From the sequence record ON113170.1: DNA of 64,000 nucleotides. One strand, written 5' to 3'. The stretch is from Enterococcus phage vB_OCPT_CCS1. Positions 36,287 to 48,184 of the stretch are shown piece after piece. The position numbers were made by a program, and so were the translations under genes. Position 1 is the first letter of the stretch. Each line of letters starts with the position of its first letter. The notes under the pieces were generated by a model. The model ran no database searches. It was not told the DNA's origin and worked only from the letters and a program-made list of their open reading frames with translations.

Positions 36287-37822
36287 TTATTTAAGTGCTT
36301 CTTTTACAAAGTCGTATTCTGGTTTATTTAACACAGACAACATCATTTCTTCTGGGGAAGTAACTTCTCCACCTAGTACTTGCGATAAAATATTTGTGGA
36401 GAATCCAGAAACTAACGCAACATTATCTTCGTTAAACCGTACTGGTAGATTATCATGACGAGATTGTACATTCCAGAAAATAATAGCAGGTAACTCGTAG
36501 CCATGATTTGCAAACTCCTGTTTTGCTTGCTCAAAGTTTGTTCTTTGTCCTCGTTCACAAGCAGTATTAAATTCCATATCACTGATAATAATAATCTTGG
36601 ATGGTAGTTCTTCTTGCGGTGTGTTATGCTTAACCGCAGTATCAAGAATCAATCGGAACACTGCTTGAATATTAGTAGAATAGCCAACTCTTGCACGGTT
36701 ATATACTCTCATACGGTCATACACAGTATCCTGTGGATTCAAATATACTAAACTAGGTTCTGATGCAAATGTAATGAAGTGATTAGCGAAAGTACCGTTT
36801 AATTTTTCAGCCGTGTATAATGCCAAACCTTGCGCAACATCCCAAGGGTAAACCCCGTTCGTTTCTGTCCAAGTCATTGAACTAGAAGAATCAGCAACTA
36901 CAATTGCGTTATCTTCCACATCCTTAATAACATCATCTAAAGACTGCCAAGTAGCTTCTAAAGAACGATTTACACCCTGACCTGCACGTGCTTTACGGTA
37001 TGCTCCTGTAATCTCGTGAGGTAATACCAAACTTGCATTAAGCTTTCCTTCACCCGACTCCACCTTTTCCATAAGCGCTTCATATTCATCTGGCATGTGT
37101 AATTGCAAAGCTTTACGGTATTTGAATAATGCTTTAGAGGATACTTGGTTCAAATCAATCTTATGGTATTCCTTGCTTGCTAACCGAACTTCAATTACAT
37201 TTAAGTAATCACGTAATTTAGCAATCATTTTACGATAACGAGTTAGACCTGCTTTGCCTTCAAAACCTAAATAGTTAGCAATACGAGCACCTTGATTACG
37301 TTTCTTACTATTTGGAGAACTTACATTAGCTAACCATTTACCTAGTAATGAAACAGGTTTACCCTCTGACATATTTTTAATATCTGATGTTAGTTGGTTC
37401 CCGATGATACGTGCACCTTCTGTATCCACAAAGTGGATACTACGTTTGTGTGCGTATTCCATAGTTTCAAATAAGTCTGTCCAACGACCAACATATGCCA
37501 TGTACTCCATTAAAGTAACGATTACTTGCTTGTTTTGGTTACGACCATCCACTAAGTATTTGATTGCTTCTAGGTAAGCGGAACGTTCACCCAATCCACC
37601 TAAACGGATATTACGTAAGTGTACCAAATTGCGTAATGCTAACTCTGGGTTTTCAGCATAAGCTTTAGAAAACATGTTTCGTACATCTTCTAAACGACCA
37701 CGCATAGCCCCTGCTTGTGCAAAGAAGTCTAAGTTAGCGTTTAAAGTTGATGTGTAAGTTTTAGCTCCATTTTCTGTATGTCCAACAGTTGTTTCTTCTT
37801 TTAGGTTGTCTAAAAATGACAT
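36287..37822 (-). CDS. rsr: Ro60/Rsr-like protein: helical TROVE-like N-terminal region + C-terminal vWA domain (also consistent with phage DUF2828-type annotation)
   Basis: 511 aa; ~310-aa helical N-terminal part; C-terminal vWA with MIDAS VVADSSSSMTW (DxSxS) and downstream IIISDMEF; architecture and size match Ro60; promoter 37864-37892 and RBS AAAGGAGAGATG. Confidence 0.55.
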   Translation of the reverse strand: MSFLDNLKEETTVGHTENGAKTYTSTLNANLDFFAQAGAMRGRLEDVRNMFSKAYAENPELALRNLVHLRNIRLGGLGERSAYLEAIKYLVDGRNQNKQVIVTLMEYMAYVGRWTDLFETMEYAHKRSIHFVDTEGARIIGNQLTSDIKNMSEGKPVSLLGKWLANVSSPNSKKRNQGARIANYLGFEGKAGLTRYRKMIAKLRDYLNVIEVRLASKEYHKIDLNQVSSKALFKYRKALQLHMPDEYEALMEKVESGEGKLNASLVLPHEITGAYRKARAGQGVNRSLEATWQSLDDVIKDVEDNAIVVADSSSSMTWTETNGVYPWDVAQGLALYTAEKLNGTFANHFITFASEPSLVYLNPQDTVYDRMRVYNRARVGYSTNIQAVFRLILDTAVKHNTPQEELPSKIIIISDMEFNTACERGQRTNFEQAKQEFANHGYELPAIIFWNVQSRHDNLPVRFNEDNVALVSGFSTNILSQVLGGEVTSPEEMMLSVLNKPEYDFVKEALK

Positions 37823-37863
37823 CTGACATCTCTCCTTTGTATGATAGTATTTTATCTAACACC

Positions 37864-37892
37864 ACTATAACATGTAATATTATGTAAGTCAA
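37864..37892 (-). promoter_or_regulatory. sigma-A-type promoter of the Ro60-like gene (gtgTTGACTT-N17-TATAGT family)
   Basis: minus strand TTGACT at 37887-37892, TATAGT at 37864-37869, 17-nt spacer. Confidence 0.55.
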
Positions 37893-38060
37893 CGCCTTTT
37901 ATAAATAAAAAACCCATCCATTTAAGAATGAGTTTTTTCATCTTAACCAGTAGTTAAGCGGGGGGGGCGCAACACCTTTTATTTAACTTGTCATTATAAT
38001 ATCAAGAACCACAGGCTTAATAATTAGATTTGAAAGGTTTAGTCTATTAGTAGTTGATTG

Positions 38061-38140
38061 CTGTAGGGTTCTTTATGCTCTGGCAACCTAGTAGGTTAGA
38101 GCTATGGCAAATTGCCAAAACCTTTTTATTATGTACAAGA
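38061..38140. repeat. structured ~80-nt repeat, copy 1 (two hairpins supported by compensatory changes)
   Basis: GCTCT-[AACCT-agt-AGGTT]-AGAGC then TGGCA-aat-TGCCA then AAAACCTTTTTAT. Confidence 0.5.
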
Positions 38141-38156
38141 ATCTATTTTATACGTT

Positions 38157-38213
38157 GCTCTAACCAAACTGAGCTACGGGAGGATGATTCCTCCCGGCAG
38201 GACTCGAACCTGC
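38157..38213 (-). ncRNA. tRNA-mimic module 1 (T arm + closed acceptor hairpin + D arm; no anticodon arm): YrlA-like Y-RNA candidate
   Basis: on the minus strand: GCAGG-TTCGAGT-CCTGC (T arm), CGGGAGG-aatcat-CCTCCCG (7-bp hairpin where acceptor strands would pair), TA, GCTCAGTTTGGTTAGAGC (canonical D arm). Confidence 0.5.
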
Positions 38214-38244
38214 GACCCACGGCTCCATAGGCAATAAAAATCGC

Positions 38245-38325
38245 TGTTAGATTCTTTATGTTCCGGCACCCATTAAGGATGGAACTATAGCTATGCTAAA
38301 ACCGTTTTATTTATGTAACAAGAAC
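38245..38325. repeat. structured ~80-nt repeat, copy 2
   Basis: GTTCC-[CCAT-taagg-ATGG]-GGAAC then TAGC-tat-GCTA then AAAACCGTTTTAT; stems covary with copies 1 and 3. Confidence 0.5.
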
Positions 38326-38338
38326 GCATTAACTTTAA

Positions 38339-38390
38339 GCTTTACCAATTAAGCTATACCACCAATGGTGGCAGTTGGATTCGAACCAAC
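38339..38390 (-). ncRNA. tRNA-mimic module 2 (same permuted architecture)
   Basis: GTTGG-TTCGAAT-CCAAC (T arm), TGCCACC-att-GGTGGTA (hairpin), TA, GCTTAATTGGTAAAGC (D arm). Confidence 0.5.
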
Positions 38391-38427
38391 AACTCACATT
38401 TTTCAGATGTATTAGTTTTAAAAATTT

Positions 38428-38510
38428 GCTGTGGCGTTCTTTATGTTCCGGCTACCTGTTAGGTTGGAACTATGACATATGTCAAAACCTTTTTATCTTG
38501 TCTTTATAAT
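38428..38510. repeat. structured ~80-nt repeat, copy 3
   Basis: GTTCC-[ACCT-gtt-AGGT]-GGAAC then TGACA-ta-TGTCA then AAAACCTTTTTAT. Confidence 0.5.
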
Positions 38511-38558
38511 AGCATAAGCTATTTAAACTGTCAAGTATTAATTTAAATATATTGAAAC

Positions 38559-38783
38559 TTATTTAAAAGCTCCAATATATTTAACAGTACCTTTGCATTT
38601 ACGTGCAAAAGCTTCTAGCTCTTTACGAGCACCTAAACGGTCTGGTTGAGAAGACTGTACTGTAACTTCTTTTGGCACAGTAATTTCACGAGTTTTCTTA
38701 ACTGTCTTTCCGTTTTTTAACTTTTGTTCATACTCTTCTGTACGAGTAGAAGTTGTTGAAATAATTCCATAAAATTTAGACAT
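38559..38783 (-). CDS. hypothetical basic protein
   Basis: ORF track 74 aa; RBS CCGGAGGT. Confidence 0.45.
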   Translation of the reverse strand: MSKFYGIISTTSTRTEEYEQKLKNGKTVKKTREITVPKEVTVQSSQPDRLGARKELEAFARKCKGTVKYIGAFK

Positions 38784-38814: not shown

Positions 38815-38895
38815 GGGGAGTGATGGAGTTGCACCACCCGAGCTTTCGCAACTGATTTACAGTCAGCCCCGCTACTACTTACGGTATAACTCCCC
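38815..38895 (-). tRNA. atypical type-II tRNA-like (anticodon GUA, Tyr?) with noncanonical T loop
   Basis: acceptor GGGGAGT/ACTCCCC 7 bp; anticodon hairpin GCTGA-CTGTAAA-TCAGT; extra arm; T loop reads TGCAACT rather than TTCRANY. Confidence 0.35.
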
Positions 38896-39091
38896 GTATA
38901 AGTATGTATATATCAATACAATGTACAAGAACTTTTAGTGAGGTAGCTCTCATAGTGTATTAATGGGGTACATTGTGTAACTTCAACTAGTATTGCCTCA
39001 CACGTGACTAGTCTTATATACACAATGCCTACATACAACCCGATAGACCACCCTTGGTACGCATATTAAGAGGCGCAGGGTGGTACGAATA

Positions 39092-39162
39092 TATGGATTG
39101 CAGGATTTGAACCCGCACCTTTTTGACGGAAGCCAAAAATACTACCCTTATATTAAATCCAC
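39092..39162 (-). tRNA. tRNA-Gly(UCC)
   Basis: T arm GCGGG-TTCAAAT-CCTGC; acceptor 6/7 + G-U; anticodon loop CTTCCGT; AT-rich D arm. Confidence 0.5.
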
Positions 39163-39282
39163 ATAGTGTTAATAGGCGGGTACCCGACAGCGAAGTATCA
39201 TTCCTGTCTTGTCATTCTCCTATTAACTCCATAATACCTTGCCTAGAGTTGAGCTAGGTCTCACATTTATCGAAGGTACTAA

Positions 39283-39355
39283 TCGGGAAAGCAGGACTTG
39301 AACCTGCGACCCCACGCTCCCAAAGCGTGTGCGCTACCAACTGCGCTATTTCCCG
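39283..39355 (-). tRNA. tRNA-Pro(UGG)
   Basis: acceptor CGGGAAA/TTTCCCG exact; D arm GCGCAGTTGGTAGCGC; anticodon stem CACGC/GCGTG with loop TTTGGGA; T arm GCAGG-TTCAAGT-CCTGC. Confidence 0.8.
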
Positions 39356-39432
39356 TTAACTTATACATACATTATAACACAAACTTACATGCTGTAAACA
39401 ACTATTTGTAAGTTTTTTTAATTTATCCATTC

Positions 39433-39510
39433 GGGACAGTGTGCTTTAACCATTCAGCCACCCGCAGGGGCAACCCGCAGGACGGGAATCGAACCCGTAT
39501 AACACTGTCC
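39433..39510 (-). ncRNA. tRNA-mimic module 3, closed by a 9-bp stem at the anticodon-stem position: YrlA-like Y-RNA candidate
   Basis: GGACAGTGT-tat-ACGGG-TTCGATT-CCCGT (T arm)-CCTGCGGG-ttgcc-CCTGCGGG (8-bp self-complementary hairpin with two G-U)-tg-GCTGAATGGTTAAAGC (D arm)-ACACTGTCC; the terminal 9-bp stem GGACAGTGT/ACACTGTCC encloses the whole unit. Confidence 0.55.
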
Positions 39511-39675
39511 TATTGGATAGGCTTGTGTACCTGTCATCTTCCGATTACACACACCTAGTCTAGTTACCGTACCAATAGATTTGACAGGAATCTAGGGTAA
39601 CGCCCAATATGGTGTTAATTCACCTCGTATTCTGTTACAGGTTTGCAACCCTGAACAAGGATGACCAATCCTAAT

Positions 39676-39743
39676 GATATGCGAGGGGATTTGAACCCCT
39701 ATCTACTTCATAGGTCACTTTATCCACTTAAGCTACGCATACC
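39676..39743 (-). tRNA. irregular tRNA-like element (short; possible pseudogene)
   Basis: canonical T arm AGGGG-TTCAAAT-CCCCT and 7-bp acceptor (one G-U); only ~16 nt between D arm and T arm, so no standard anticodon arm fits. Confidence 0.3.
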
Positions 39744-39799
39744 TATTTAATTTCTAGCTAGGTAACTAAATTCACTGCACCTTGCGCAGAGTACAGCTA

Positions 39800-39872
39800 T
39801 GGAGCATAGCGGACTTGAACCGCTGACATCTACCTTGCAAGGGTAGCGCTCTCCCAACTGAGCTAATGCCCC
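39800..39872 (-). tRNA. tRNA-Ala(UGC)
   Basis: acceptor GGGGCAU with G3:U70 wobble (Ala identity); D arm GCTCAGTTGGGAGAGC; anticodon loop CTTGCAA; T arm AGCGG-TTCAAGT-CCGCT. Confidence 0.85.
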
Positions 39873-39877
39873 GAAAA

Positions 39878-39950
39878 CACCTCCGCTGAGATTTGAACTC
39901 AGAATGCGGGATTAGAAATCCTGTGGTTTATCCAATTAGCCTACGGAGAT
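39878..39950 (-). tRNA. tRNA-Arg(UCU)
   Basis: T arm CTGAG-TTCAAAT-CTCAG; anticodon stem CAGGA/TCCCG with loop TTTCTAA; acceptor 7 bp with one G-U. Confidence 0.7.
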
Positions 39951-39954
39951 ATAC

Positions 39955-40119
39955 TTACTTAAACGGAAGATAAATTGTTTGACCAATTCTAATTTTATTA
40001 GGGTCTTTAATATTCCTATTCTGACCATGTAACCAAATTAGTCTCCATAACCAAGGCTTGCCATAATATTTTCTAGCAATAGAATACAATGTGTCACCTT
40101 TTTTAACTGTGTATTTCAT
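39955..40119 (-). CDS. small LysM-domain protein (54 aa)
   Basis: MKYTVKKGDTLYSIARKYYG...IGQTIYLP is a LysM consensus; RBS AGGGGG; below ORF-track cutoff. Confidence 0.45.
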   Translation of the reverse strand: MKYTVKKGDTLYSIARKYYGKPWLWRLIWLHGQNRNIKDPNKIRIGQTIYLPFK

Positions 40120-40148
40120 AACAATTACCCCCTAATTTATAAATATGG

Positions 40149-40517
40149 CTATATATAGGATACTCCTGTAAACAATTCAATTGCTTCAATTTCAGTATGG
40201 AAGTTTTCCCATTCTAAACATTCATAGAAATCTTGTAAGATATGCTTGTCTTTCCTGTAAACAGTCTCACCTTTATGGGCTTTCTCACAGATTTCTCTAA
40301 CAGCATCCACATTATATTTACCACCAGTTTTATACTGTTCTAAACCAGAATCTAGTAAAACTCGTTGTACTTCTTCACTCTTATCTCCTGCTTTCCAAGA
40401 GTCAAAAGCTTTATCATACAATGTATCTTCCATGTTTTCACCTTCTACTTCCATGATTGATTGAATAAATCTTTGCCACTTAGAAGGCTCTTTGTGTTTA
40501 CCTTTACGAAAACTCAT
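40149..40517 (-). CDS. hypothetical protein
   Basis: ORF track 122 aa; RBS GGAGG upstream. Confidence 0.5.
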   Translation of the reverse strand: MSFRKGKHKEPSKWQRFIQSIMEVEGENMEDTLYDKAFDSWKAGDKSEEVQRVLLDSGLEQYKTGGKYNVDAVREICEKAHKGETVYRKDKHILQDFYECLEWENFHTEIEAIELFTGVSYI

Positions 40518-40543
40518 TATTAGCCTCCATTATCTTTAATGAA

Positions 40544-40630
40544 CCGAGGAGGAGGGACTCGAACCCCCAAACGCTTTTACACGTCTACATGATTTCAAAT
40601 CACGCTGAATACCAGTTATGATACTCCCCG
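40544..40630 (-). tRNA. tRNA-Ser(UGA), type II
   Basis: 87 nt; acceptor CGGGGAG pairs CTCCTCG with G-U; anticodon loop TTTGAAA; long variable arm; T arm GGGGG-TTCGAGT-CCCTC. Confidence 0.65.
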
Positions 40631-40741
40631 AAAAAGAAACTGATTGACTAGTACTGTTAGTTGACTAGTCAACCGGAACTACTTAAACCGAACTCTTTAA
40701 ACAGCTTTAGTAGTTATTATTTAGGTTTTTAAATAAACAAC

Positions 40742-41002
40742 TTACCAAAACCAAACTAGATTTAATGCTAGTCGTTTACTAATAATAGGTGATTTTCTAT
40801 GTCTAACCGATTTAAACTTACGTACATTCCCCTTATATGGTGTAAAGTCAATCTTACAAGGTTCAACATAATTAAATTTACGGTTAGCTCGTTTAATTAC
40901 TGCTTGCTTTTGTTTAGAAGCTTTAATTTCTTTTTCAAATGCTTCTTTTTCAATGTTGTTAGCTATGGTTGCTAAATGTTCAGTCATAAAGCTCATGTCC
41001 AT
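40742..41002 (-). CDS. hypothetical basic protein
   Basis: ORF track 86 aa between two tRNA-Ser genes; RBS AGGAGAGATG. Confidence 0.4.
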   Translation of the reverse strand: MDMSFMTEHLATIANNIEKEAFEKEIKASKQKQAVIKRANRKFNYVEPCKIDFTPYKGNVRKFKSVRHRKSPIISKRLALNLVWFW

Positions 41003-41019
41003 CTCTCCTTACACGTTCT

Positions 41020-41106
41020 ATGGAAGGCATGGGATTCGAACCCACACATGCTGTTACACATCTACTTGGTTTCCAACCAAGCCTCTTTACCGTTTGAGTA
41101 ACCTTC
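41020..41106 (-). tRNA. tRNA-Ser(GGA), type II
   Basis: 87 nt; acceptor GGAAGGT/GCCTTCC; D stem CTC/GAG 3 bp; anticodon stem CTTGG/CCAAG with loop TTGGAAA; long variable arm; T arm GTGGG-TTCGAAT-CCCAT. Confidence 0.75.
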
Positions 41107-41202
41107 CGTCTTGGGAGCAGGCGGGTTTGTGTCAAGTACACAATACCTAATCTTCTGTGCATGTTGTTCCCTAGGCTTTATGCACACCCTACTATCTGCA
41201 TA

Positions 41203-41388
41203 CTAACAGACCTGCCAATTTTCTAACACTTTTTCTAATGCTTCGTATGGACACATTACTGTCTTACCGTGAACACCATGTATTCTCAAAATAATATAAT
41301 GTTCATTTATCTCAGAGGTAACAAAGTATATCTTGTCTTTCACTAAACCTAAACTTCCGTTTAAACCAATGAATTTTAAATACATCAT
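41203..41388 (-). CDS. hypothetical protein
   Basis: ORF track 61 aa; RBS AAGGAGGT. Confidence 0.4.
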   Translation of the reverse strand: MMYLKFIGLNGSLGLVKDKIYFVTSEINEHYIILRIHGVHGKTVMCPYEALEKVLENWQVC

Positions 41389-42132
41389 GTTACCTCCTTA
41401 TTATGTATAACCCATGAAGCATCATGGGGGGACTGTAGTATGCCCAACCTGCGGGGATGCTCCGCTCTGAATCCGTAGAAATCAGCCACAATTCGATATT
41501 TATTTAATGAAAAAATTAGATAGGATTCGACTGCTTGACAAAGGCAGTCTATGGAGTAGACGGGACTCGAACCCGTGTCCTAACGTAGAACCATACAAAA
41601 TTCTACGGGCGTAGTTACTAGTTTTAATCTACGTTAAGGTTACAACTAATAACTGAAATTACCTTAACTGAGTGGTAAAGCCTCTCCTGAGTTATCCACT
41701 TTTACCTCAGCGTTGTCGGTTGATGAGTCCTCTAGGTAGAACCGACCCTAGTCTAGAGGGGTAAGTGTGTAGCTAGTCTAAAACTAGGCTACAGCTAATA
41801 ATTCTTCGTTTTTAGCAGTTATATTTACTGCGATGATTAAGTCATCACTCTGCCCGCTATTCATATACTCCTTACGCCAGTCGAAACCAAAACTACCCCA
41901 ACATAAGAATTTCTTTTGACTAACCCTACCCTTCCGGCAGGGTCTAATCAAAAGTATACAATTAAAAAAATGAAAATGAGTTACGGAAAATGTAACGTCT
42001 CCACCACCGGACTATAAGGGTAAGTTGTTCCGGTCTTTAACCTAAGTACTTTACTTAAATCTAACAGGACAGCCTTCATTACGTAAACTACTTAACCATG
42101 TAAAACGTAAAGGTCAATTTCCGTTGACCTAA

Positions 42133-42206
42133 TGCAAGAGGGGGGATTCGAACCCCCACTGAATAGATTCTAAGTCTACTTCCTCTGCCAGTTGGGATAC
42201 TCTCGC
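42133..42206 (-). tRNA. tRNA with anticodon UAG (Leu by anticodon; short variable arm, atypical D arm)
   Basis: perfect T arm GGGGG-TTCGAAT-CCCCC; acceptor 7 bp with one G-U; anticodon hairpin GTAGA-CTTAGAA-TCTAT. Confidence 0.5.
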
Positions 42207-42291
42207 ATAATAACAGCCCTACCCAACCGCTGTTCTGCTAGCATATAGCTTGCAGGCTTTTTATCTGTGTTATAAAAACCAGAAAGGCTAT

Positions 42292-42375
42292 ACGGGTAAC
42301 AGGAGTCGAACCTGCATGTCACAAGGGACAATGGATTTTAAGTCCACAGCGTATACCAGTTCCGCCATACCCGCA
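42292..42375 (-). tRNA. tRNA-Leu(UAA), type II
   Basis: 84 nt; acceptor GCGGGTA/TACCCGT (G-U); anticodon loop CTTAAAA; variable hairpin TGTC-ACAAGG-GACA; T arm GCAGG-TTCGACT-CCTGT. Confidence 0.75.
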
Positions 42376-42552
42376 TAATCACTTTTTAAACTAGATTATT
42401 TATGATTTCCCACTTCTGAAAAAAATACCACTTTATATATCAACATTTTTCTTATGAATGGGTTAAGATATGTTTTAACGAAAAAGAGGCTAAAAGAGTA
42501 TTTCCTCAAAATTTTTTGTCAAGTTAATCTAGTAAGGAAAAGTGTAACCTTA

Positions 42553-42624
42553 TGTGACTGCTCAGAATCGAACTGAGATTCATGTTTCCACAGAACACTG
42601 CCTTACCGTTAGGCTACAGTCACC
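42553..42624 (-). tRNA. tRNA-His(GUG)
   Basis: acceptor GTGACTG/CAGTCAC exact with an extra encoded 5' G (G-1, His hallmark); anticodon loop CTGTGGA; T arm CTCAG-TTCGATT-CTGAG. Confidence 0.8.
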
Positions 42625-42647
42625 ATCATGTGTTCCTTACAAGAATT

Positions 42648-42676
42648 ACTATACAGCATCTTGTAAGGAAAGTCAA
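42648..42676 (-). promoter_or_regulatory. promoter (gtgTTGACTT-N17-TATAGT) preceding tRNA-His
   Basis: motif match; drives the tRNA sub-cluster. Confidence 0.5.
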
Positions 42677-42695
42677 CACTTAAATGTAATTTTAT

Positions 42696-42917
42696 TTAAA
42701 AAAGTTTTGATGAATCTAATTGAGAGAAACTTTCAGGTAGAGAACCTAGTTCTTCCATATACTCTTGGTCAATCTCATAAACAGATAACTCGGTTACTTC
42801 GTTTTCAATAGTAAGTTTCATTGCTTCTGCTGTTTGTATACTGTGTCCTTCTATTTGAAGTTTATCATCAAGATAAATACCTTCCCAGTCTTCTGCAACT
42901 ACATAGTCTGCTTTCAA
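42696..42917 (-). CDS. hypothetical acidic protein
   Basis: ORF track 73 aa. Confidence 0.4.
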   Translation of the reverse strand: MKADYVVAEDWEGIYLDDKLQIEGHSIQTAEAMKLTIENEVTELSVYEIDQEYMEELGSLPESFSQLDSSKLF

Positions 42918-42925
42918 GATATTAC

Positions 42926-43177
42926 CTACTTTCTTCTCAATTTCTGATAAAAATTATTATTCTTGTAATCATCCTCGTGGGCATAGAATTTTTTCATGTC
43001 ATATGTCCAACAAGTTTCTTCTACTCGTTTATGATGTGTCAATGTTACTTCGTCATCAAAACAACCTTGATTTAATTTATGCCTGTAATTTCTATTAACC
43101 ATTCTTTTTATATCTCGAACAGTTGAATCTTTCATACAAACATAACGGTAATAGGGTTTTCTGTAACTTCTACTCAT
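42926..43177 (-). CDS. hypothetical basic protein
   Basis: ORF track 83 aa; RBS AGGAGGACTTAC. Confidence 0.4.
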   Translation of the reverse strand: MSRSYRKPYYRYVCMKDSTVRDIKRMVNRNYRHKLNQGCFDDEVTLTHHKRVEETCWTYDMKKFYAHEDDYKNNNFYQKLRRK

Positions 43178-43331
43178 TGTAAGTCCTCCTTAATAGATAC
43201 TTACAATTTAGACAATACTTTCTTCACAGGAACCACTCCTTATTAATAAAAGCTACCTCCCGAAAAACGTTTCTTCACCAAAGTGTAAGACGTAAACTAA
43301 CGACAGGTCATAGTTTTCCAATTAAGGCAAA

Positions 43332-43405
43332 TACCAGTGAGAGGATTTGAACCTCTGACACCCGCCTTATCAAGACGATGCTCTAACCAACTGAGCTACA
43401 CTGGT
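43332..43405 (-). tRNA. tRNA-Ile(GAU)
   Basis: acceptor ACCAGTG/CACTGGT exact; D arm GCTCAGTTGGTTAGAGC; anticodon loop TTGATAA; T arm AGAGG-TTCAAAT-CCTCT. Confidence 0.8.
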
Positions 43406-43558
43406 GTGACCCATGTGTCAGGACTTTCACCTGTTCTCGGGGTGCCCCGCCTCTCTACTAATCTCCTCATTCGGTGCCCCTACTAGAGTGACTAGAGATA
43501 GTTAGCAATAAAAATTATATATCATGAATCAAATTTTTACTGCATCCTATATACACGA

Positions 43559-43630
43559 TACCGTCTACAGGATTTGAACCTGTGACATCCACCTTGTAAG
43601 GGTGACGTTCTCCCACTGAACTAAGACGGT
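43559..43630 (-). tRNA. tRNA-Val(UAC)
   Basis: acceptor ACCGTCT/AGACGGT exact; D arm GTTCAGTGGGAGAAC; anticodon loop CTTACAA; T arm ACAGG-TTCAAAT-CCTGT. Confidence 0.75.
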
Positions 43631-43759
43631 GAAATATGGAACCCTACCAGAGGATTTCTTTCGGTATTACAGTCACCTCGGCATGAACAAAGCCAGATAT
43701 TGAGGTCTGGACTTCTCACGCCCCGGGAGTCGAACCCAGTATAGACAAACCATATTTTA

Positions 43760-43854
43760 TACGGAAGACAGGATTCGAACCTGCGATATAGGAGTTTTAG
43801 TGCACTTATTGTCTCCACGGTATCCGTTGCGTATGCCCTACACGCCACTTCCGT
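43760..43854 (-). tRNA. long (95 nt) tRNA-like element, unassigned
   Basis: canonical T arm GCAGG-TTCGAAT-CCTGT with exact 7-bp acceptor ACGGAAG/CTTCCGT; D-arm-like GCGTGTAGGGCATACGC; ~44 nt between D and T arms (long variable arm or insertion); anticodon not resolved. Confidence 0.35.
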
Positions 43855-43861
43855 ATGTTAA

Positions 43862-43934
43862 CCGACAGTAAAGGAATCGAACCTCTATCACTAGATTCGT
43901 AGTCTAGTATCCTATCCAATTGAACGAACTGTCG
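43862..43934 (-). tRNA. tRNA-Arg(ACG)
   Basis: acceptor CGACAGT/ACTGTCG exact; anticodon stem CTAGA/TCTAG with loop CTACGAA; T arm AGAGG-TTCGATT-CCTTT. Confidence 0.75.
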
Positions 43935-44027
43935 CTCTAGGCTAGCAATTACGCAGACTGACTATGGGCACCTTCGTCCCGTCCCCTGTAAGTGCCCTCC
44001 TACAGGTTGTCCGTGGCACCGCAATGT

Positions 44028-44101
44028 ACTAACCGATGTCCCCACAGGGATTTGAACCCCGAACCTCCCGATTAAAAGTCGGGTGCTCTAGCCGATTGAG
44101 C
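44028..44101 (-). tRNA. tRNA-Lys(UUU)
   Basis: D arm GCTCAATCGGCTAGAGC; anticodon stem CCCGA/TCGGG with loop CTTTTAA; T arm CGGGG-TTCAAAT-CCCTG; acceptor 7 bp with two G-U. Confidence 0.8.
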
Positions 44102-44167
44102 TATGAAGACAGTTGTGTTTTTCAAGATAACCCTCTCGAAAAACCGTTACTAATAGAAAAACTAAGG

Positions 44168-44241
44168 GTCTCGACTGACAGATTTGAACTGCCTGCTCCT
44201 CCTAAGAGGCGTGTTACCAAAGCCATACACCAACTCTTCGA
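44168..44241 (-). tRNA. degenerate tRNA-like element (possible pseudogene)
   Basis: good T arm GGCAG-TTCAAAT-CTGTC but the acceptor pairs only 5/7 and no convincing D or anticodon arm. Confidence 0.25.
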
Positions 44242-44243
44242 GA

Positions 44244-44317
44244 ATATCCCCTACAGGATTCGAACCTGTGACCCCCTGATTAAGAGTCAGGTGCTACCAC
44301 CAACTGAGCTAAGGAGA
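44244..44317 (-). tRNA. tRNA-Lys(CUU)
   Basis: T arm ACAGG-TTCGAAT-CCTGT exact; D arm GCTCAGTTGGTGGTAGC; anticodon stem CCTGA/TCAGG with loop CTCTTAA; acceptor with one G-U. Confidence 0.6.
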
Positions 44318-44330
44318 TAAGATTACCAAT

Positions 44331-44406
44331 AGCTAGTTAAGCCTTACGGAATCGAACCGCCATGAGGTTATGAAGCTCACATAGACCACTAGACACAAAA
44401 CTAGCT
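44331..44406 (-). tRNA. noncanonical tRNA-like element (7-nt insertion between T arm and acceptor)
   Basis: perfect 7-bp terminal stem AGCTAGT/ACTAGCT and T-arm-like GGCGG-TTCGATT-CCGTA, but 7 extra nt (AAGGCTT) separate the T arm from the 3' acceptor strand; D arm weak. Confidence 0.3.
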
Positions 44407-44501
44407 TATTGATAAAATTCTATATAGATAATTGTATGCAATGTTCGCACTAACTAACCAGATAACTAGCCAATCATTCAAAACATTAATTTGTGAGTTT
44501 C

Positions 44502-44573
44502 CGCTCACAATGCTGATTGAGAGAATCGAACTCCCATTCCCGGGTTACAAAGCCGGAGTAATAGCCGTTATAC
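44502..44573 (-). tRNA. tRNA-Thr(UGU)
   Basis: acceptor GCTGATT/AATCAGC exact; anticodon stem CCGG/CCGG with loop TTTGTAA; T arm GGGAG-TTCGATT-CTCTC. Confidence 0.7.
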
Positions 44574-44607
44574 TAAATCAGCGTAACCCCTCAATAGAGG
44601 GGAATTA

Positions 44608-45699
44608 TTATACTAGGTTACCATACCCGTAGGTATTTGTTTGAGCTTGTTTAAACATGATGCTCTTGATAGTTAAGTCGTTGTACTTTTCATCGTCTTC
44701 ATCATCAAGGTACACATCAACGTTAACGTTCTTACCGGAAATACCGATTGTTTCGTCTTTACCAACTGTTAAGTCTTTACTGTTGAATGATACATCAAAG
44801 TAGATGCTATCTTCTTTTGTACGACTACCGAACGAAACTCTGTCACCGAATAAATCTAAGCTTCGAGAGTTGATTACAACAGGTTGTAACCCACCTTCGA
44901 ATTGAATAGTTACTGTGTAATATTGATTTTCAATATTAAGGATGTTTAAGTCAGCAATAGCTTCACCAAATGGGATACCAAAGTTTAATTCCAACGCAAT
45001 AGCTCGTAAGCAGTCATAATTTAACTTAATTCTACGGCTAAACTTAACAACACTGTCAATTTCACCATAGTAAGCTTCGTCTAACTTATCTTGCAAGTAA
45101 GTACGAATTTCATCTGCATCAGGATATTCGAAACGTAAATGGTAATGAAAACGTCCCGGACGGTTAAGCATAAAGTCATTTACACGATTTAAGCTATTAA
45201 CAGTAAGAGCGTAGATACGTTTACGTTGTGATAAACCATCGAATAAGCTCAATAGTTTTTCTTGTGGTTCACGACCGTCACGGTCATTGAATACTTTTTC
45301 AAACTCATCGAACAGGATAAGAGACTCTTGGTCAATACTGTCAATAAATTCTGCAATCCCCGGATAAGCTTCTGTAATTAAGATAACAGGCATACCCTCT
45401 TCAATAGCTCGTTGAGATAAGATTTGAGTAAATAGTGATTTACCAATCCCTTTGTCTCCACTTAAAATGATTCCTAAGCTACGATTAATTGTTTTAAATG
45501 TGTGTAGCACTTTTTCAATTTTAGCTAAACGGTCACCGTAAACTTTAGGTTCTTTCAAATCAAAATCGTCTGTTACTACTAGCGAGAACCCTGACATTTG
45601 ATTGAACCGAACTTTATAAGTTTGCGCAGGTAACTTATCATAAGTTTTAAGGTCGTTTGCATAAATTTCATAGTTACTACCATAGTTGATTACTTTCAT
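44608..45699 (-). CDS. AAA+ ATPase
   Basis: Walker A SGDKGIGKS, Walker B LILFDEFE, sensor/Arg-finger region NRPGRFHYHLRF; start moved to MKVINYG (RBS AAGGGG) because the longer ORF-track start overlaps tRNA-Phe. Confidence 0.7.
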   Translation of the reverse strand: MKVINYGSNYEIYANDLKTYDKLPAQTYKVRFNQMSGFSLVVTDDFDLKEPKVYGDRLAKIEKVLHTFKTINRSLGIILSGDKGIGKSLFTQILSQRAIEEGMPVILITEAYPGIAEFIDSIDQESLILFDEFEKVFNDRDGREPQEKLLSLFDGLSQRKRIYALTVNSLNRVNDFMLNRPGRFHYHLRFEYPDADEIRTYLQDKLDEAYYGEIDSVVKFSRRIKLNYDCLRAIALELNFGIPFGEAIADLNILNIENQYYTVTIQFEGGLQPVVINSRSLDLFGDRVSFGSRTKEDSIYFDVSFNSKDLTVGKDETIGISGKNVNVDVYLDDEDDEKYNDLTIKSIMFKQAQTNTYGYGNLV

Positions 45700-45738
45700 A
45701 AATATTCCCCTTATTCGTGTTTTACTAGCATTTGCTAA

Positions 45739-45812
45739 TGGAGAGGGGTGGAATTGAACCACCGACCCCTAGGGTTTCAATCTAGTGCTCTAACCTACTG
45801 AGCTACCTCTCC
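45739..45812 (-). tRNA. tRNA-Phe(GAA)
   Basis: acceptor GGAGAGG/CCTCTCC exact; D arm GCTCAGTAGGTTAGAGC; anticodon loop TTGAAAC; T arm GGTGG-TTCAATT-CCACC. Confidence 0.75.
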
Positions 45813-45943
45813 GTGTCAATTTGGACTTATCCCCCACGTGGTTACTAAGATAAGTCCTATGCCTTTGAAGTGTGGATACTCAAAAATGAGTACAGGTACT
45901 AAAAATCTGATGACAAGTCAGATTTATATCATAAGCAGAAGGT

Positions 45944-46015
45944 GAGATTCGAACTCACATTCAGGGGTTTGCAATCCCTAGCCTTAACCACTTGGCTACT
46001 TCCGCAATATCAAAA
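45944..46015 (-). tRNA. tRNA-Cys(GCA)
   Basis: D arm GCCAAGTGGTTAAGGC; anticodon stem AGGGA/TCCCT with loop TTGCAAA; T arm GTGAG-TTCGAAT-CTCAC. Confidence 0.8.
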
Positions 46016-46027
46016 TACACGCTGTGA

Positions 46028-46099
46028 AGGATTCGAACCCCCGTCTTCCGGGTTGGAGCCGGAAATGATAGCCACTACACCAACAGCGCAAGATTCGGA
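46028..46099 (-). tRNA. tRNA-Trp(CCA)
   Basis: anticodon stem TCCGG/CCGGA with loop CTCCAAC; T arm GGGGG-TTCGAAT-CCTTC; acceptor with terminal G-U. Confidence 0.75.
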
Positions 46100-46226
46100 G
46101 GGGAGGGACTAGCAACCCTCCGAAAGATGTAAGATAATGAGAGATTAAAACATACCACTATTAAAAGTGGAATAGGTAATTAAGGATTCGAACCTTACAA
46201 GCCCTTACTGCTTACCTTGTAAACTT

Positions 46227-46255
46227 ATAGTATCATGTGTTGTACCGAAAGTCAA
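46227..46255 (-). promoter_or_regulatory. promoter (gtgTTGACTT-N17-TACTAT) preceding tRNA-Trp/Cys/Phe
   Basis: motif match. Confidence 0.45.
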
Positions 46256-46300
46256 CACTTTTTATAAAAATAATAGGGAGAAATATTTCTCCCTAAAAAA

Positions 46301-46373
46301 TGGACTACTTGGGAATCGAACCCAAACCTGTCAGTTATGAGCTGACGGCTCTGACCTACTGAGCTAATAGTCC
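46301..46373 (-). tRNA. tRNA-Met(CAU), elongator-type (could be the lysidine Ile2 tRNA)
   Basis: D arm GCTCAGTAGGTCAGAGC; anticodon stem GTCAG/CTGAC with loop CTCATAA; T arm TTGGG-TTCGATT-CCCAA; no initiator features (no C1:A72, no GGG/CCC anticodon stem). Confidence 0.8.
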
Positions 46374-46580
46374 GTGTAATAATACCACGAAATAAACCTT
46401 AGTAAGTCATACAGTCCCAGAAAGGGAGGCATATGATACTAGTGTTGAGTGCCATAATCGTTTAATAAATGTGACTGAGAGAGTAATAAATTTCTTAGGC
46501 ATGTCCATATGCCTCCTTTCCAATAATGATAGTTTTAAGATATAAACAGAATAAATAAAAGAGAAAATAATAATGAATAA

Positions 46581-46652
46581 TAGCGCATGAGAGAGTCGAA
46601 CTCTCGATTCCGGTTCGAAAGACCGGTGTCTTGACCGCTTGACCAATGCGCC
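46581..46652 (-). tRNA. tRNA-Glu(UUC)
   Basis: D arm GTCAAGCGGTCAAGAC; anticodon stem CCGGT/ACCGG with loop CTTTCGA; T arm GAGAG-TTCGACT-CTCTC. Confidence 0.8.
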
Positions 46653-46657
46653 ATAAA

Positions 46658-46732
46658 CGAGCTATATGGGACTTGAACCCATGACCTTCTCCGTGACAGG
46701 GAGACGAGCACTCCTGACTGCTCCAATAGCCC
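46658..46732 (-). tRNA. tRNA-Asp(GUC)
   Basis: anticodon stem TCTCC/GGAGA with loop CTGTCAC; D stem GAGC/GCTC; T arm ATGGG-TTCAAGT-CCCAT. Confidence 0.8.
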
Positions 46733-47986
46733 AATGTTTCCCCAACCACCGCCACCTAGGGGATTCGTACGTCTACGTGAGTTTTTTGGTTATAGTTCCT
46801 TGTTTAAGACAAGGAAGTACGAGTGGACTACCAATTTACCACTCTGCGGTTCTGATTGCGGTAGGTGGGATATGTAAGATAAAAAGACCACTCTTAGAAT
46901 GATTTAATCTGTAAAAAACACATCGCATAAACGAGATGCAGTTATAGCTCTATCAAGCAACCTACACCGATTCCGTCGATTACTACCGACATCGCCTTGC
47001 TCGTGTACTTTGAGCGCCCATTTCCAACCCTCGGTTGCTAATGTTTCTCTCCTAACCTACACCTGAGAGTGGCACACGTCTGTGCTAGTATTTTATGCCT
47101 ATTAACTGATTCGCAGGCACACTGCTTAATTCAGCCAACCAATCGGCATCCGATAAGATTGATTGTTTCCGTAGGTTCTTTAAGTCACTGGAGTGGTACT
47201 GCCCCACTCACGCCTATTAAAGTGTTAACTTAATAGATAAAAACTACTCATAACAGGTTTACTACCATAGCATTCTCTACTTCCGCCACAGTGACATGTT
47301 TAAAAACTCAAAACTTAATAGATTAAGGGCTTTTCTTCCTGCTTCATATACACTCACTGCATTCGGTCACATACTCAGAGAGGCTGAACCATCGGGAGCT
47401 ACCCGATAGCTTCTCTCTGCCTTTAATGTATGGTCTAGCACGGTGGCTAACAACGTTCACCTAAACATTCAGCTATTAAAAGTATTAATTAACATATATC
47501 CTTATGTCTTCTATAATATTTTCATCAAAAGCTGACTTAGGCTACTTGTACCAAGGTCTCTTGTTAAACCTGTATTTCTACAGTTCTCGTCAAAGGGAGT
47601 CTTTTGAGTTTTCCAAGGTCTGCCAAGCTTCTCACACTTCCACCTAACTTGGATTCTTTTCCACAGGAACGTCTATTGTATCCCCCAAGAGTCTTGTACC
47701 TTACAATCCATGTATACTCCACATAACGCTTAACTGATATTAGCTTTTACTAATAGTTACTCCTATGTTACCATAAGACCTACCTGCAACCCAAAGCACT
47801 ATCGCACCTTCGGTTACATTCAGATTCACGCCACGCTATCCTAGCAAGCTGTTCAAACTTTCTGCACTAGGTTCAAAATCTATTAAGTTTTCAATTTTTA
47901 ACCACTAACTTGTGGTGTAATACTAATATAGCATAACATTACAAAGTTGTAAACACCTTTTTGTAAGTTTTTTTGATTTTTTTTTG

Positions 47987-48074
47987 ATGGAAGGTAAGGG
48001 GGTCGAACCCTTACACCGGATTTCTCCGACCTAACTGATTAGCAATCAGCCCTATTACCATTTGAGTAACCTTC
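47987..48074 (-). tRNA. tRNA-Ser(GCU), type II
   Basis: 88 nt; acceptor GGAAGGT/ACCTTCC exact; anticodon loop TTGCTAA; variable hairpin; T arm AAGGG-TTCGACC-CCCTT. Confidence 0.75.
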
Positions 48075-48075
48075 C

Positions 48076-48112: not shown

Positions 48113-48184
48113 AAGAGAGATGTCTCTAAAAGCCTACAACCATTATAACATAGAAACATAGTTTGTACAGCCGTAACTGTACAA

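What the first reader, a model, noticed from the sequence alone, without database searches (positions are those of the whole stretch)
38061..38510. Three covarying ~80-nt structured repeats interleaved with the tRNA-mimic modules
Copies at 38061-38140, 38245-38325 and 38428-38510 share a frame: ctgtNNNNttctttatg, hairpin 1, ctat, hairpin 2, then AAAACC(T/G)TTTTAT. Both hairpin stems change by compensatory substitutions. The outer stem is GCTCT/AGAGC in copy 1 and GTTCC/GGAAC in copies 2 and 3. Inner stems are AACCT/AGGTT, CCAT/ATGG and ACCT/AGGT. The second hairpin is TGGCA/TGCCA, TAGC/GCTA or TGACA/TGTCA. This covariation argues for selection on RNA structure rather than sequence. The repeats alternate with Y-like modules 1 and 2 and lie between them and the rsr promoter. 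They may be the Ro60-binding or processing elements of a polycistronic ncRNA array.
Basis: seen in the sequence. Interest (0 to 1): 0.6.

Follow-up and report, generated by a model that had tools for sequence, protein, structure and literature searches.

The report
Hairpin cassettes punctuating phage Y-RNA array
The three repeats are a real, previously undescribed two-hairpin RNA element that sits directly in front of each Y-like RNA gene beside a Ro60-like gene in an Enterococcus phage. It most likely marks or protects the start of each Y-like RNA rather than binding the Ro60-like protein.

Summary
The window is an Enterococcus Schiekvirus, and everything here is transcribed from the minus strand. 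One strong promoter (38534-38506) drives three units. Each unit is a ~50-nt cassette (GGUU, hairpin A, hairpin B with a 3-nt GCC bulge that is GCC in all but one copy seen) fused with no spacer to a Y-like RNA module. A terminator follows, then the promoter and gene of a Ro60-fold protein (DUF2828/DUF7788).

Across 54 copies (33 distinct) from relatives, 94.8% of cells pair, against 26-51% when partners are slid, and 11 of 14 pairs show double changes. Hairpin B's outer helix is 100% paired.

CAUAAAGAA-NNNN-ACAG is the 5' strand of the next Y module's basal stem, and NNNN covaries with sequence on the far side of that module.

The cassette occurs only in Schiekvirus and close relatives. More distant homologous loci keep the Y-like frames but replace the cassette with a promoter, a tRNA or nothing. 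It is therefore not the general Ro60 site.

Best reading (about 0.45): a cis-acting punctuation, 5'-end-defining or stabilising element of a polycistronic Y-RNA precursor. No Rfam family or paper found describes it.

The parts
38506..38534 (-). Promoter of the ncRNA array (TTGACA-17-TATTAT with TG, 11 of 12 matches)
   Evidence: Conserved in all related loci.
38437..38496 (-). Cassette 3, first in the transcript: GGUU 38486-38489, hairpin A 38473-38484, hairpin B 38445-38470 with GCC bulge 38450-38452
   Evidence: Covariance-model hit at 76.7 bits. The MFE fold gives both hairpins. Covariation.
38312..38444 (-). Y-like module with tRNA-like domain. Basal stem AAGAACGC/GCGUUCUU; 5'-strand motif ACAGCAA at 38426-38432
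   Evidence: Rfam YrlA 34.3 bits, E 3e-5, below the gathering score of 69. MFE fold. Basal-stem covariation.
38252..38310 (-). Cassette 2: GGUU 38300-38303, hairpin A 38288-38298, hairpin B 38260-38285, GCC 38265-38267
   Evidence: Covariance-model hit at 78.5 bits. Fold.
38130..38259 (-). Y-like module with tRNA-like domain (T-arm GCAGGUUCGAGUCCUGC, D-arm-like GUAGCUCAGUUUGGUUAGAGC). Basal stem AAGAAUCUA/UAGAUUCUU; ACAGCGA at 38241-38247
   Evidence: Rfam YrlA 47.1 bits, E 6e-9, below the gathering score..
38069..38129 (-). Cassette 1, last in the transcript: GGUU 38119-38122, hairpin A 38105-38117, hairpin B 38077-38102, GCC 38082-38084
   Evidence: Covariance-model hit at 79.1 bits. In isolation this copy also has an alternative MFE fold that relatives do not conserve.
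37997..38076 (-). Third Y-like module without a tRNA-like domain. Stem AAGAACC(CU)ACAG/CUGUGGUUCUU encloses a ~45-nt A/U-rich loop; ACAGCAA at 38058-38064
   Evidence: Read from the sequence, MFE fold. Present in all related arrays.
37945..37996 (-). ~50-60-nt insertion found only in this phage and Porthos. It duplicates the array promoter's -10 and start region (TTATAATGACAAGTTAAATAAAAGG) and carries a C8 run
   Evidence: Repeat D4. Locus comparison. In EFP01 the array deletion joins these two repeats.
37905..37940 (-). Terminator-like hairpin plus U-run that ends the array (AAAAAACUCAU...AUGGGUUUUUU)
   Evidence: Inverted repeat I16. Conserved as ACUCAU/AUGAGU plus a U-run in relatives. The terminator scan did not flag it because it has fewer than 3 G-C pairs.
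37864..37892 (-). Promoter of the Ro60-like gene (TTGACT-17-TATAGT with TG)
36287..37822 (-). Ro60-fold protein gene (511 aa; Pfam DUF2828 + DUF7788; PHROG 850 'RNA-binding protein')
   Evidence: AlphaFold model pLDDT 91.8. The top 12 Foldseek PDB hits are all Ro60/TROVE structures: 9kop, 9l5y, 1yvr, 2nvo; E 2e-8 to 1e-5; TM up to 0.64.

Best explanation
The repeats are transcribed from the minus strand as part of one polycistronic ncRNA, running promoter 38534 to terminator ~37905. The transcript holds three units.

Each unit has this layout: an A-rich single-stranded linker; GGUU; hairpin A (4-5 bp, variable loop); AUA; hairpin B (5-bp outer helix, 4-5-bp inner helix, 3-nt GCC bulge on the 3' side). 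A Y-like RNA follows with zero spacer. Its 5' end (R-UAAAGAA-NN) pairs with NN-UUCUUG-Y-UAC on the far side of a variable cargo, which may be a tRNA-like domain, a whole tRNA in a relative, or an unstructured loop.

I propose that the cassette is a cis-acting punctuation element. It marks the 5' boundary of each Y-like RNA in the precursor. A host or phage factor reading the constant GGUU and GCC features would use it either to direct a cut at or near the hairpin B / R-UAAAGAA junction or in the A-rich linker, or to shield the new 5' end from 5'-exonuclease. The Ro60-like protein itself binds the module (basal stem plus ACAGCRA), not the cassette.

Shown: the RNA structure, its strand, its 1:1 position 5' of each module, its narrow phylogenetic range, and its absence from more distant functional homologues.

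Inferred: that cleavage or protection happens, and which factor is involved.
For: 1. Structure under selection: 94.8% paired, 11 of 14 pairs with double changes, hairpin B's outer helix 100% paired with 4 of 5 pairs covarying. Relatives carry UUCG and GUAA tetraloops in hairpin A.
2. Strand: promoter and terminator are on the minus strand, and the G-U cells are only valid there.
3. Position: every cassette is followed by a module. The first cassette follows the promoter, and no cassette follows the last module, in the window, A2, iF6, L132, L133, L134, L136 and L141. A cassette and its module are gained or lost together (iF6/Ben versus the window versus A2).
4. The junction between hairpin B and R-UAAAGAA never varies in length, while the upstream linker does.
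5. In relatives without the cassette, the same nucleotide is reached by other 5'-end-defining devices. In L135, two 11/12 promoters end 6 nt before GUAAAGAA. In L137, the frame begins at the nucleotide after the tRNA-Val discriminator.
6. Precedent: Y RNAs are made from polycistronic precursors, in one case together with a tRNA (D. radiodurans Yrn2-tRNAAsp-Yrn1; M. smegmatis YrlA and YrlB; PMC4201824).
7. EFP01 has lost the whole array together with most of the Ro60-like gene.
8. The model finds no copies elsewhere in the window, in 185,579 species genomes, or outside this phage clade in IMG/VR and JGI metagenomes.
Against: - No transcript ends are known, so cleavage is pure inference.
- The first cassette lies downstream of a promoter that could define a 5' end by itself. 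A separator between modules would not need to be there.
- In L135, L138 and the Listeria phage, some modules abut or have plain A/U linkers. Punctuation by a structured element is therefore not obligatory.
- The near-invariant GCC bulge, the GGUU and the A-U and C-G pairs inside hairpin B suggest specific recognition. That would fit an integral functional domain of the mature RNA equally well.
- Hairpin B is only ~10 bp, short for RNase III.
- Single-copy folding z-scores are modest.
Confidence: 0.45

Rival explanations
1. The cassette is an integral 5' domain of each mature Y-like RNA. It would be a constant docking platform for a second partner (a host nuclease such as PNPase, RNase J or RNase Y, or a phage protein), or a helix that stacks on the Y basal stem. 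The variable cargo would provide specificity.
For: - The 1:1 association includes the promoter-proximal unit.
- The zero-nt junction allows coaxial stacking of hairpin B on the basal stem.
- GCC, GGUU and two base pairs are constant, as expected for a recognition surface.
- Y RNAs are known tethers between Ro60 and PNPase (PMC4201824; PMC12135203).
Against: Modules in L135, L137, L138 and Listeria phage LMTA-94 lack it, although they sit next to homologous Ro60-like genes. In L135 and L137 the 5' end appears to be set exactly where the cassette ends. No candidate partner gene co-varies with presence of the cassette in the loci seen.
Confidence: 0.25
2. One reading: the hairpins are the binding sites of the Ro60-like protein.
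For: They lie next to the Ro60-like gene. Hairpin B is a bulged helix, and some copies read GUUCCAA, which superficially resembles the vertebrate GGUCCGA (motif from PMC4201824).
Against: - The helix sequence covaries freely (GCUCU, GUUCC, GCUUC, GUCUU, GUCCC, GUCUC). That does not fit base-specific recognition.
- The cassette is absent from loci with the same protein family and the same module frame.
- A constant ACAGCRA motif sits on the 5' strand of the terminal stem. That is where GNCGAAN0-1G or the CGAA motif sits in known bacterial and phage Y RNAs.
Confidence: 0.08
3. The cassette is a new small self-cleaving ribozyme, or a minimal mimic that recruits a tRNA-processing nuclease (RNase Z or RNase P) to cut at its 3' edge.
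For: - A compact ~50-nt fold with few constant unpaired nucleotides. GG of GGUU could pair with CC of the GCC bulge as a pseudoknot; this is inference, with no covariation possible.
- Its position is equivalent to a tRNA in L137.
- The junction reads helix-R|UAAA, like the CCA-less phage tRNAs of this window, which are nearly all followed by U.
Against: No Rfam ribozyme, tRNA or other family matches even at E<=10. Hairpin B's bulge is on the opposite strand from a tRNA's topology. There is no T-loop consensus. No experiment exists.
Confidence: 0.07
4. The repeats are DNA-level sites: promoters for each module, or operators for the neighbouring XRE-type HTH protein.
For: Hairpin A is a DNA palindrome (TGACATATGTCA). 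Some copies contain TTGACA. The plus strand gives weak promoter-like matches in copies 1 and 3 at 9 of 12. An HTH gene lies downstream.
Against: - Half-sites differ between copies by compensatory changes (TGACA, TGGCA, TAGC, TGTC, UCGA, CUAAC).
- There is no -10 element at the right spacing on the minus strand.
- G-U pairs and tetraloops are RNA features.
- The HTH gene is also present where the cassette is absent.
Confidence: 0.03

Closest known systems
YrlA-type and Y-like RNAs encoded upstream of Ro60 orthologues in bacteria and phages (Rfam RF02553; Chen et al. 2014, PMC4201824; Thermus phage phiLo Yrl1/Yrl2, PMC12135203)
   Same: The ncRNAs lie upstream of a Ro60-fold gene. Each has a terminal 5'/3' stem with a conserved purine-rich 5'-strand motif and, in some, a tRNA-like T-arm/D-arm domain. 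There are several Y RNAs per locus, made from one precursor.
   Different: The modules here score below the Rfam gathering threshold (47 and 34 bits versus 69). The motif is ACAGCRA rather than GNCGAAN0-1G or CGAA. The protein matches Pfam DUF2828/DUF7788 with no Pfam TROVE match at the threshold used. No 5' two-hairpin cassette appears in the passages of these papers that I read, nor in the Rfam YrlA model.
tRNA punctuation of polycistronic Y-RNA precursors (D. radiodurans Yrn2-tRNAAsp-Yrn1; PMC4201824)
   Same: A structured element between Y RNAs in one transcript. In the related locus L137, a tRNA occupies exactly the cassette's position, ending one nucleotide before the Y frame.
   Different: The cassette is not a tRNA (no ARAGORN or Rfam tRNA hit). 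It is ~50 nt with two simple hairpins, and no nuclease is known to recognise it.
RNase III processing hairpins between genes of phage early transcripts (T7 R1.1-R5; Bacillus phage SP82). Recalled from my own knowledge, not checked here
   Same: Irregular hairpins with an asymmetric internal loop or bulge, repeated between the units of a phage polycistronic RNA. After cleavage they leave protective structures.
   Different: Those hairpins are about 20 bp, whereas hairpin B is about 10 bp. There is no sequence similarity, and cleavage is not shown here.
5'-terminal stabiliser stem-loops in Firmicutes that block RNase J1 (for example the ermC and aprE leaders). Recalled from my own knowledge
   Same: Hairpins close to the 5' end of an RNA in a low-GC Gram-positive host, preceded by an A/U-rich single strand that would suit RNase Y.
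   Different: Stabilisers need no conserved bulge or GGUU. Nothing here shows that the 5' end lies at hairpin A.
HK022 put RNA, a two-stem-loop cis-acting antiterminator. Recalled from my own knowledge
   Same: About 60 nt, two adjacent stem-loops with a bulge, phage-encoded, acting in cis on its own transcript.
   Different: put acts once per transcript, whereas this element is repeated before every module. No similarity was tested or is known.

Membership tests
Rfam YrlA (RF02553), for the flanking modules | Bit score at or above the gathering score of 69 | tested here: not met
   47.1, 34.3 and 30.1 bits; E 6e-9 to 5e-4.
Rfam YrlA (RF02553), for the flanking modules | tRNA-like T-arm and D-arm between the strands of a terminal stem | tested here: met
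   The cmscan alignment shows GCAGGUUCGAGUCCUGC and GUAGCUCAGUUUGGUUAGAGC in register with the consensus. Terminal stem positions N1 and N2 pair in 24 of 24 modules, with 3 and 2 pair types.
Rfam YrlA (RF02553), for the flanking modules | GNCGAAN0-1G motif on the 5' strand (PMC4201824) | tested here: not met
   ACAGCRA (ACAGCGA, ACAGCAA) sits at the equivalent place. It is similar but not the motif.
Y RNA (general definition), for the hairpin cassette itself | A long stem formed by the RNA's 5' and 3' ends that contains the Ro60 site, plus a large internal loop | tested here: not met
   The cassette is two local hairpins with no long-range stem. It is absent from homologous Ro60-like loci.
Ro60/TROVE protein, for ORF 36287-37822 | Ring of HEAT-like repeats plus a vWA domain (fold) | tested here: met
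   AlphaFold pLDDT 91.8, pTM 0.91. The top 12 Foldseek PDB hits are all Ro60/TROVE, full length, TM up to 0.64. vWA domains come next.
Ro60/TROVE protein, for ORF 36287-37822 | Sequence-level match to TROVE or to solved Ro60 structures | tested here: not met
   Pfam gives only DUF2828 and DUF7788 at E<=0.001. phmmer against PDB finds nothing at E<=10. tblastn does link it at 31-34% identity to mycobacteriophage proteins annotated 'Ro-like RNA binding protein'.
Intrinsic terminator | G+C-rich hairpin followed by a U-run on the transcribed strand | tested here: not met
   On the minus strand, hairpin B is followed by AUAAAGAA. The scan flags only a plus-strand match at hairpin A of copy 1.
Sigma-70 promoter | -35 and -10 hexamers at 16-18 nt, conserved between copies | tested here: not met
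   No minus-strand site lies inside any cassette. The TTGACA-like part covaries as a hairpin.
Known self-cleaving ribozymes, riboswitches and sRNAs in Rfam 15 | Covariance-model match | tested here: not met
   No hit covers the cassettes at E<=10 in three searches.
tRNA (as punctuation) | Cloverleaf detected by ARAGORN or Rfam tRNA | tested here: not met
   No tRNA call covers the cassettes as such; the only weak, below-threshold Rfam tRNA hit nearby (38277-38363, 16.1 bits) lies mainly on the adjacent module and its linker.
RNase III processing signal of the T7 R1.1 type | About two helical turns of dsRNA with an asymmetric internal loop, cleaved by RNase III | not testable with these tools
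   An asymmetric 3-nt bulge is present, but the helix is only ~10 bp. Cleavage needs an enzyme assay.
Dispersed repeat or MITE-like element | Copies scattered in unrelated intergenic regions | tested here: not met
   Exactly 3 copies in 64 kb, all in the array. None in bacterial genomes.

The most novel reading that the evidence does not exclude
The cassette is a new class of portable RNA punctuation module. It would be a ~50-nt pseudoknotted two-hairpin fold that either cleaves itself or recruits a host nuclease to cut exactly at its 3' edge. In that role it would replace tRNA punctuation, letting a phage build arrays of up to six or more Ro60-loaded scaffold RNAs that display different cargos, including tRNA mimics and even a whole tRNA.
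Probability: 0.15. Interest if true: 0.7.

Novelty: new variant of a known kind. Interest (0 to 1): 0.5.

Why it matters
Ro60-Y RNA particles are conserved from bacteria to humans, but how bacterial and phage Y RNAs are matured is largely unknown.

This locus gives a compact natural system. It has one promoter and three to six or more Y-like RNAs built on one constant scaffold, each preceded by the same small structured element. Close relatives lack that element, which provides a ready-made comparison.

If the cassette directs processing or stability, it identifies a new cis signal for RNA maturation in Enterococcus and possibly a useful tool for expressing multiple small RNAs.

The work also shows that about 30 sequenced therapeutic-candidate Enterococcus phages carry an unannotated Y-RNA array. 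The DUF2828/DUF7788 'RNA-binding protein' found in about 700 phage genomes has the Ro60 fold, at least in the member modelled here.

Tried and rejected
- **First pattern scan.** CATAAAGAANNNNACAGC in IMG/VR was too loose. It gave 120+ chance singletons and only one real locus.
- **Second pattern scan.** The gap lengths were wrong and it returned two chance hits, L139 and L140. The corrected pattern found 4 contigs.
- **Genome scan.** It gave 30 singletons in unrelated taxa, all scoring 22 bits or less with the model, which is chance level.
- **Metagenome scan.** It gave 35 loci, of which only the 5 multi-copy ones are real.
- **Sequence search against PDB.** The protein found nothing; the link to Ro60 needed a fold search.
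- **Literature.** Searches for DUF2828, Y RNA plus Enterococcus phage, and Schiekvirus transcriptomes found nothing relevant.
- **K-turn.** Rejected by eye because there are no tandem G-A pairs next to the bulge.
- **CRISPR- or ToxI-type repeats.** Rejected because the copies diverge with compensation and are separated by Y modules.
- **Plus-strand structure.** Considered because copy 3 folds better on the plus strand (z = -3.0). That fold pairs the complement of the GCC bulge with bases that are not conserved in other copies. G-U pairs favour the minus strand.
- **GGUU-GCC pseudoknot.** It could not be tested: both partners are essentially constant, and the single GCU bulge variant has an unchanged GGUU leader.
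- **Upstream 74-aa protein.** Considered as a cassette-specific partner, but it is also present where the cassette is absent.
Full report
**What is in the window**

The region 37,800-38,600 has no long ORFs. It lies between a 511-aa ORF (36287-37822) and a 74-aa ORF (38559-38783), both on the minus strand. All neighbouring genes are also on the minus strand: 24 tRNAs, a tmRNA and a ROOL RNA.

BLAST places the window in Enterococcus phages of the genus Schiekvirus (Herelleviridae). The best match is phiSHEF16 at 97.9%. About 30 isolate genomes carry the same region. None of the seven records I inspected annotates any feature in it.

The frame GCTGTNNNNTTCTTTATG occurs exactly three times in 64 kb. 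The stems are as described.

Read in the RNA sense (minus strand), each copy has this layout:
- an A-rich linker;
- GGUU(UU);
- hairpin A;
- AUA;
- hairpin B, made of a 5-bp outer helix, a 4-5-bp inner helix and a 3-nt GCC bulge on the 3' side;
- R-UAAAGAA-NNNN-ACAGCRA.

**Comparative evidence**

Close Schiekvirus relatives (A2, iF6, Ben, TJE1, EFDG1, Porthos) add a fourth cassette type.

I used the Ro60-like protein to find more distant loci. This gave uncultivated relatives at 66-73% protein identity (L132, L133, L134, L136, L141) with two to six cassettes each.

These cassettes have very different stem sequences:
- Hairpin B outer helices are GCUCU/AGAGC, GUUCC/GGAAC, GCUUC/GAAGC, GUCUU/AAGAC, GUCCC/GGGAC and GUCUC/GAGAC.
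- Hairpin A includes GAC-UUCG-GUC and CGA-GUAA-UCG tetraloop hairpins. One variant pair, UCGA/UCGA versus UCGG/CCGA, differs by a compensatory change.

The pair counts are as follows.

| Alignment | Cells paired | When partners slid | Pairs with double changes | Shuffles reaching observed score |
|---|---|---|---|---|
| 22 distinct copies | 94.8% | 26-51% | 11 of 14 | 0 of 500 |
| 54 copies, 33 distinct | 94.8% | 26-50% | 11 of 14 | 0 of 500 |

In both alignments hairpin B's outer helix is 100% paired, and four of its five pairs covary. The second alignment was fitted to the model.

Sixteen G-U cells would be A-C mismatches on the plus strand (94.8% versus 89.9% paired). The minus strand carries an 11/12 promoter at 38534-38506 and a terminator-like hairpin near 37905-37940. 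The element is therefore an RNA structure on the minus-strand transcript.

GGUU, the A before hairpin B, its closing G-C pair, an internal C-G pair and the GCC bulge are invariant in the alignments. One further copy, in L141, has GCU instead of GCC.

**The 'frame' belongs to the neighbours**

MFE folds of whole units show that AAGAA-N1N2(N3) pairs with (N3')N2'N1'-UUCUU on the far side of the following module. A count over 24 distinct modules gives:
- N1 and N2 pair in 24 of 24 modules, with 3 and 2 pair types.
- Observed pairing for N1-N3 is 85%, against 51% in shuffles (maximum 68%).

The UUCUUGYUACAUA that precedes each cassette is the 3' strand and tail of the previous one. Only GGUU, hairpin A and hairpin B are the cassette proper.

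There are three modules, not two:
- Two have tRNA-like domains. Their Rfam YrlA scores are 47.1 and 34.3 bits, significant by E-value but below the gathering score of 69.
- A third, at 37997-38076, has a stem closing an A/U-rich loop.

Cassettes and modules are 1:1 in every locus. The first cassette follows the promoter, and none follows the last module. A cassette and its module are gained or lost together.

**The protein**

Pfam gives DUF2828 + DUF7788. There is no sequence match to PDB.

An AlphaFold model built on 50 homologues has pLDDT 91.8. It matches Ro60 structures over its full length: Thermus phage phiLo Ro60, Xenopus Ro, D. radiodurans Rsr and human Ro60, with E from 2e-8 to 1e-5 and TM up to 0.64.

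tblastn links the protein at 31-34% identity to mycobacteriophage proteins annotated 'Ro-like RNA binding protein', and finds the family in about 700 phage records.

Calling the gene Ro60-like is therefore justified at fold level. Ro60 genes with upstream Y-like RNAs are a known phage feature (PMC4201824; PMC12135203).

**Where the cassette is absent**

The covariance model finds nothing in these more distant loci:

| Locus | Protein identity |
|---|---|
| L135 | 56% |
| L137 | 54% |
| L138 | 51% |
| Listeria phage LMTA-94 | 42% |

All four nevertheless have Y-like frames with the same (A/U)AGAA-NNNN-ACAGCAA ... NNNN-UUC(U/C)UG signature upstream of the homologous gene.

What stands at the cassette's position differs by locus:
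- In L135, two modules are each preceded by an 11/12 promoter whose -10 ends 6 nt before GUAAAGAA. Two others abut the previous module.
- In L137, the first frame starts at the nucleotide after the discriminator of tRNA-Val.

EFP01 has lost the array together with most of the Ro60-like gene.

Pattern scans filtered with the model found the cassette in:
- 4 IMG/VR contigs;
- 5 JGI or ENA metagenome contigs;
- no bacterial or archaeal species genome.

Its range is therefore narrow: Schiekvirus and close kin.

**Interpretation**

The cassette is not needed for a Y-like frame to exist next to this protein family. A constant ACAGCRA motif sits on the 5' strand of the terminal stem, where GNCGAAN0-1G or CGAA sits in known Y RNAs. 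The Ro60-like protein therefore most plausibly binds the module, not the hairpins.

Three things suggest a role tied to the 5' boundary of each Y-like RNA:
- The cassette always lies 5' of a module.
- The junction has a fixed zero-nt spacing.
- A transcription start or a tRNA 3' end falls at the same nucleotide in relatives.

Y RNAs are known to be cut out of polycistronic precursors, in D. radiodurans together with a tRNA.

My best reading, with confidence about 0.45, is a cis-acting punctuation element. It would direct a cut, protect the resulting 5' end, or both, and would be recognised through GGUU and GCC.

What I recall of RNase III sites in T7 and SP82 early RNAs, and of RNase J1-blocking 5' hairpins in Firmicutes, makes both mechanisms plausible. 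None of that was tested here.

The main rival (about 0.25) is that the cassette stays on the mature RNA as a constant docking domain. The constant bulge and the presence of a cassette after the promoter fit that equally well.

Less likely readings:
- Ro60 binding (0.08).
- A new ribozyme or nuclease-recruiting mimic (0.07). No Rfam hit supports it. The helix-R|U junction does resemble the CCA-less tRNAs of this phage.
- DNA-level sites (0.03).

**Novelty**

The locus type (phage Ro60 plus Y-like RNAs) is known. The array in Enterococcus phages is not annotated in the records I inspected and is not described in the searchable literature. The two-hairpin cassette matches no Rfam family.

I rate it a new variant of a known kind. 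It is of moderate interest because its range is narrow and its function unproven. It is also a clean, testable system.

Noticed in passing
window 47309-47895 (-): A full-length ROOL RNA (Rfam RF03087, 267.8 bits, E 9e-61) lies inside the phage tRNA region.
   Followed up: no
window 41549-41899 (-): A phage-encoded tmRNA (Rfam 142.7 bits; ARAGORN tag peptide AKNEELLAVA) lies among the tRNA genes.
   Followed up: no
window 39091-48419 (-): There are 24 tRNA genes. None encodes CCA, and nearly all are followed directly by U after the discriminator. This is the same helix-R|U context as the junction between hairpin B and the Y frame.
   Followed up: partly
window 39420-39520 (-): A third sub-threshold YrlA-like hit (30.1 bits, E 5e-4) lies outside the array, between tRNA-Pro and tRNA-Ala. 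It has no hairpin cassette and no AAGAA/ACAGC frame. Phage Porthos annotates a 'tRNA-Pseudo' in the corresponding interval between its tRNA-Pro and tRNA-Ala genes.
   Followed up: no
window 38816-38893 (-): A tRNA-Tyr-like sequence (anticodon GUA, long variable arm) scores 27.7 bits, just under the Rfam tRNA threshold of 29, and ARAGORN misses it. ARAGORN does call tRNA-Tyr at the syntenic place in L133 and L135.
   Followed up: partly
window 37945-38004 (-): A 50-60-nt insertion is present only here and in phage Porthos. It repeats the array promoter's -10 and start region and contains a C8 homopolymer run (longer in Porthos). In EFP01 the whole array and most of the Ro60-like gene are deleted, with the junction at this repeat.
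   Followed up: partly
L133 2597-2670: One module of a related array is a complete tRNA-Cys (Rfam 52 bits; also called by ARAGORN) embedded between the two strands of a Y-type basal stem. The frame therefore behaves as a scaffold with exchangeable cargo.
   Followed up: partly
L209 (Listeria phage LMTA-94) 1600-1930; L138 5607-7512: Listeria Pecentumvirus phages carry three Y-like frames (AGGAA-NNNN-ACAGCAA ... UUCCUGU) upstream of their DUF2828 gene, with an RtcB ligase gene downstream. L138 also has RtcB. This echoes the bacterial rsr-yrl-rtcBA arrangement. The window phage has NrdD at the corresponding place instead.
   Followed up: partly
L135 1748-1825; L138 1418-1493: ARAGORN calls a tRNA with a four-base anticodon (tgga) in L135 and a suppressor-type tRNA (anticodon tta) in L138, both in related phage contigs.
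   Followed up: no
window 38971-39027 (-): A 21-nt-arm inverted repeat (76% complementary, 15-nt loop) lies in the intergenic region upstream of the tRNA-Tyr-like sequence. Near it is an isolated AGUUCUUGUACAU that resembles the 3' strand of a Y frame but has no partner.
   Followed up: no
L006 (EFDG1) 2521-3093: EFDG1 has a homing endonuclease gene inserted between the 74-aa gene and tRNA-Pro. The window has tRNA-Gly and the tRNA-Tyr-like sequence there.
   Followed up: no
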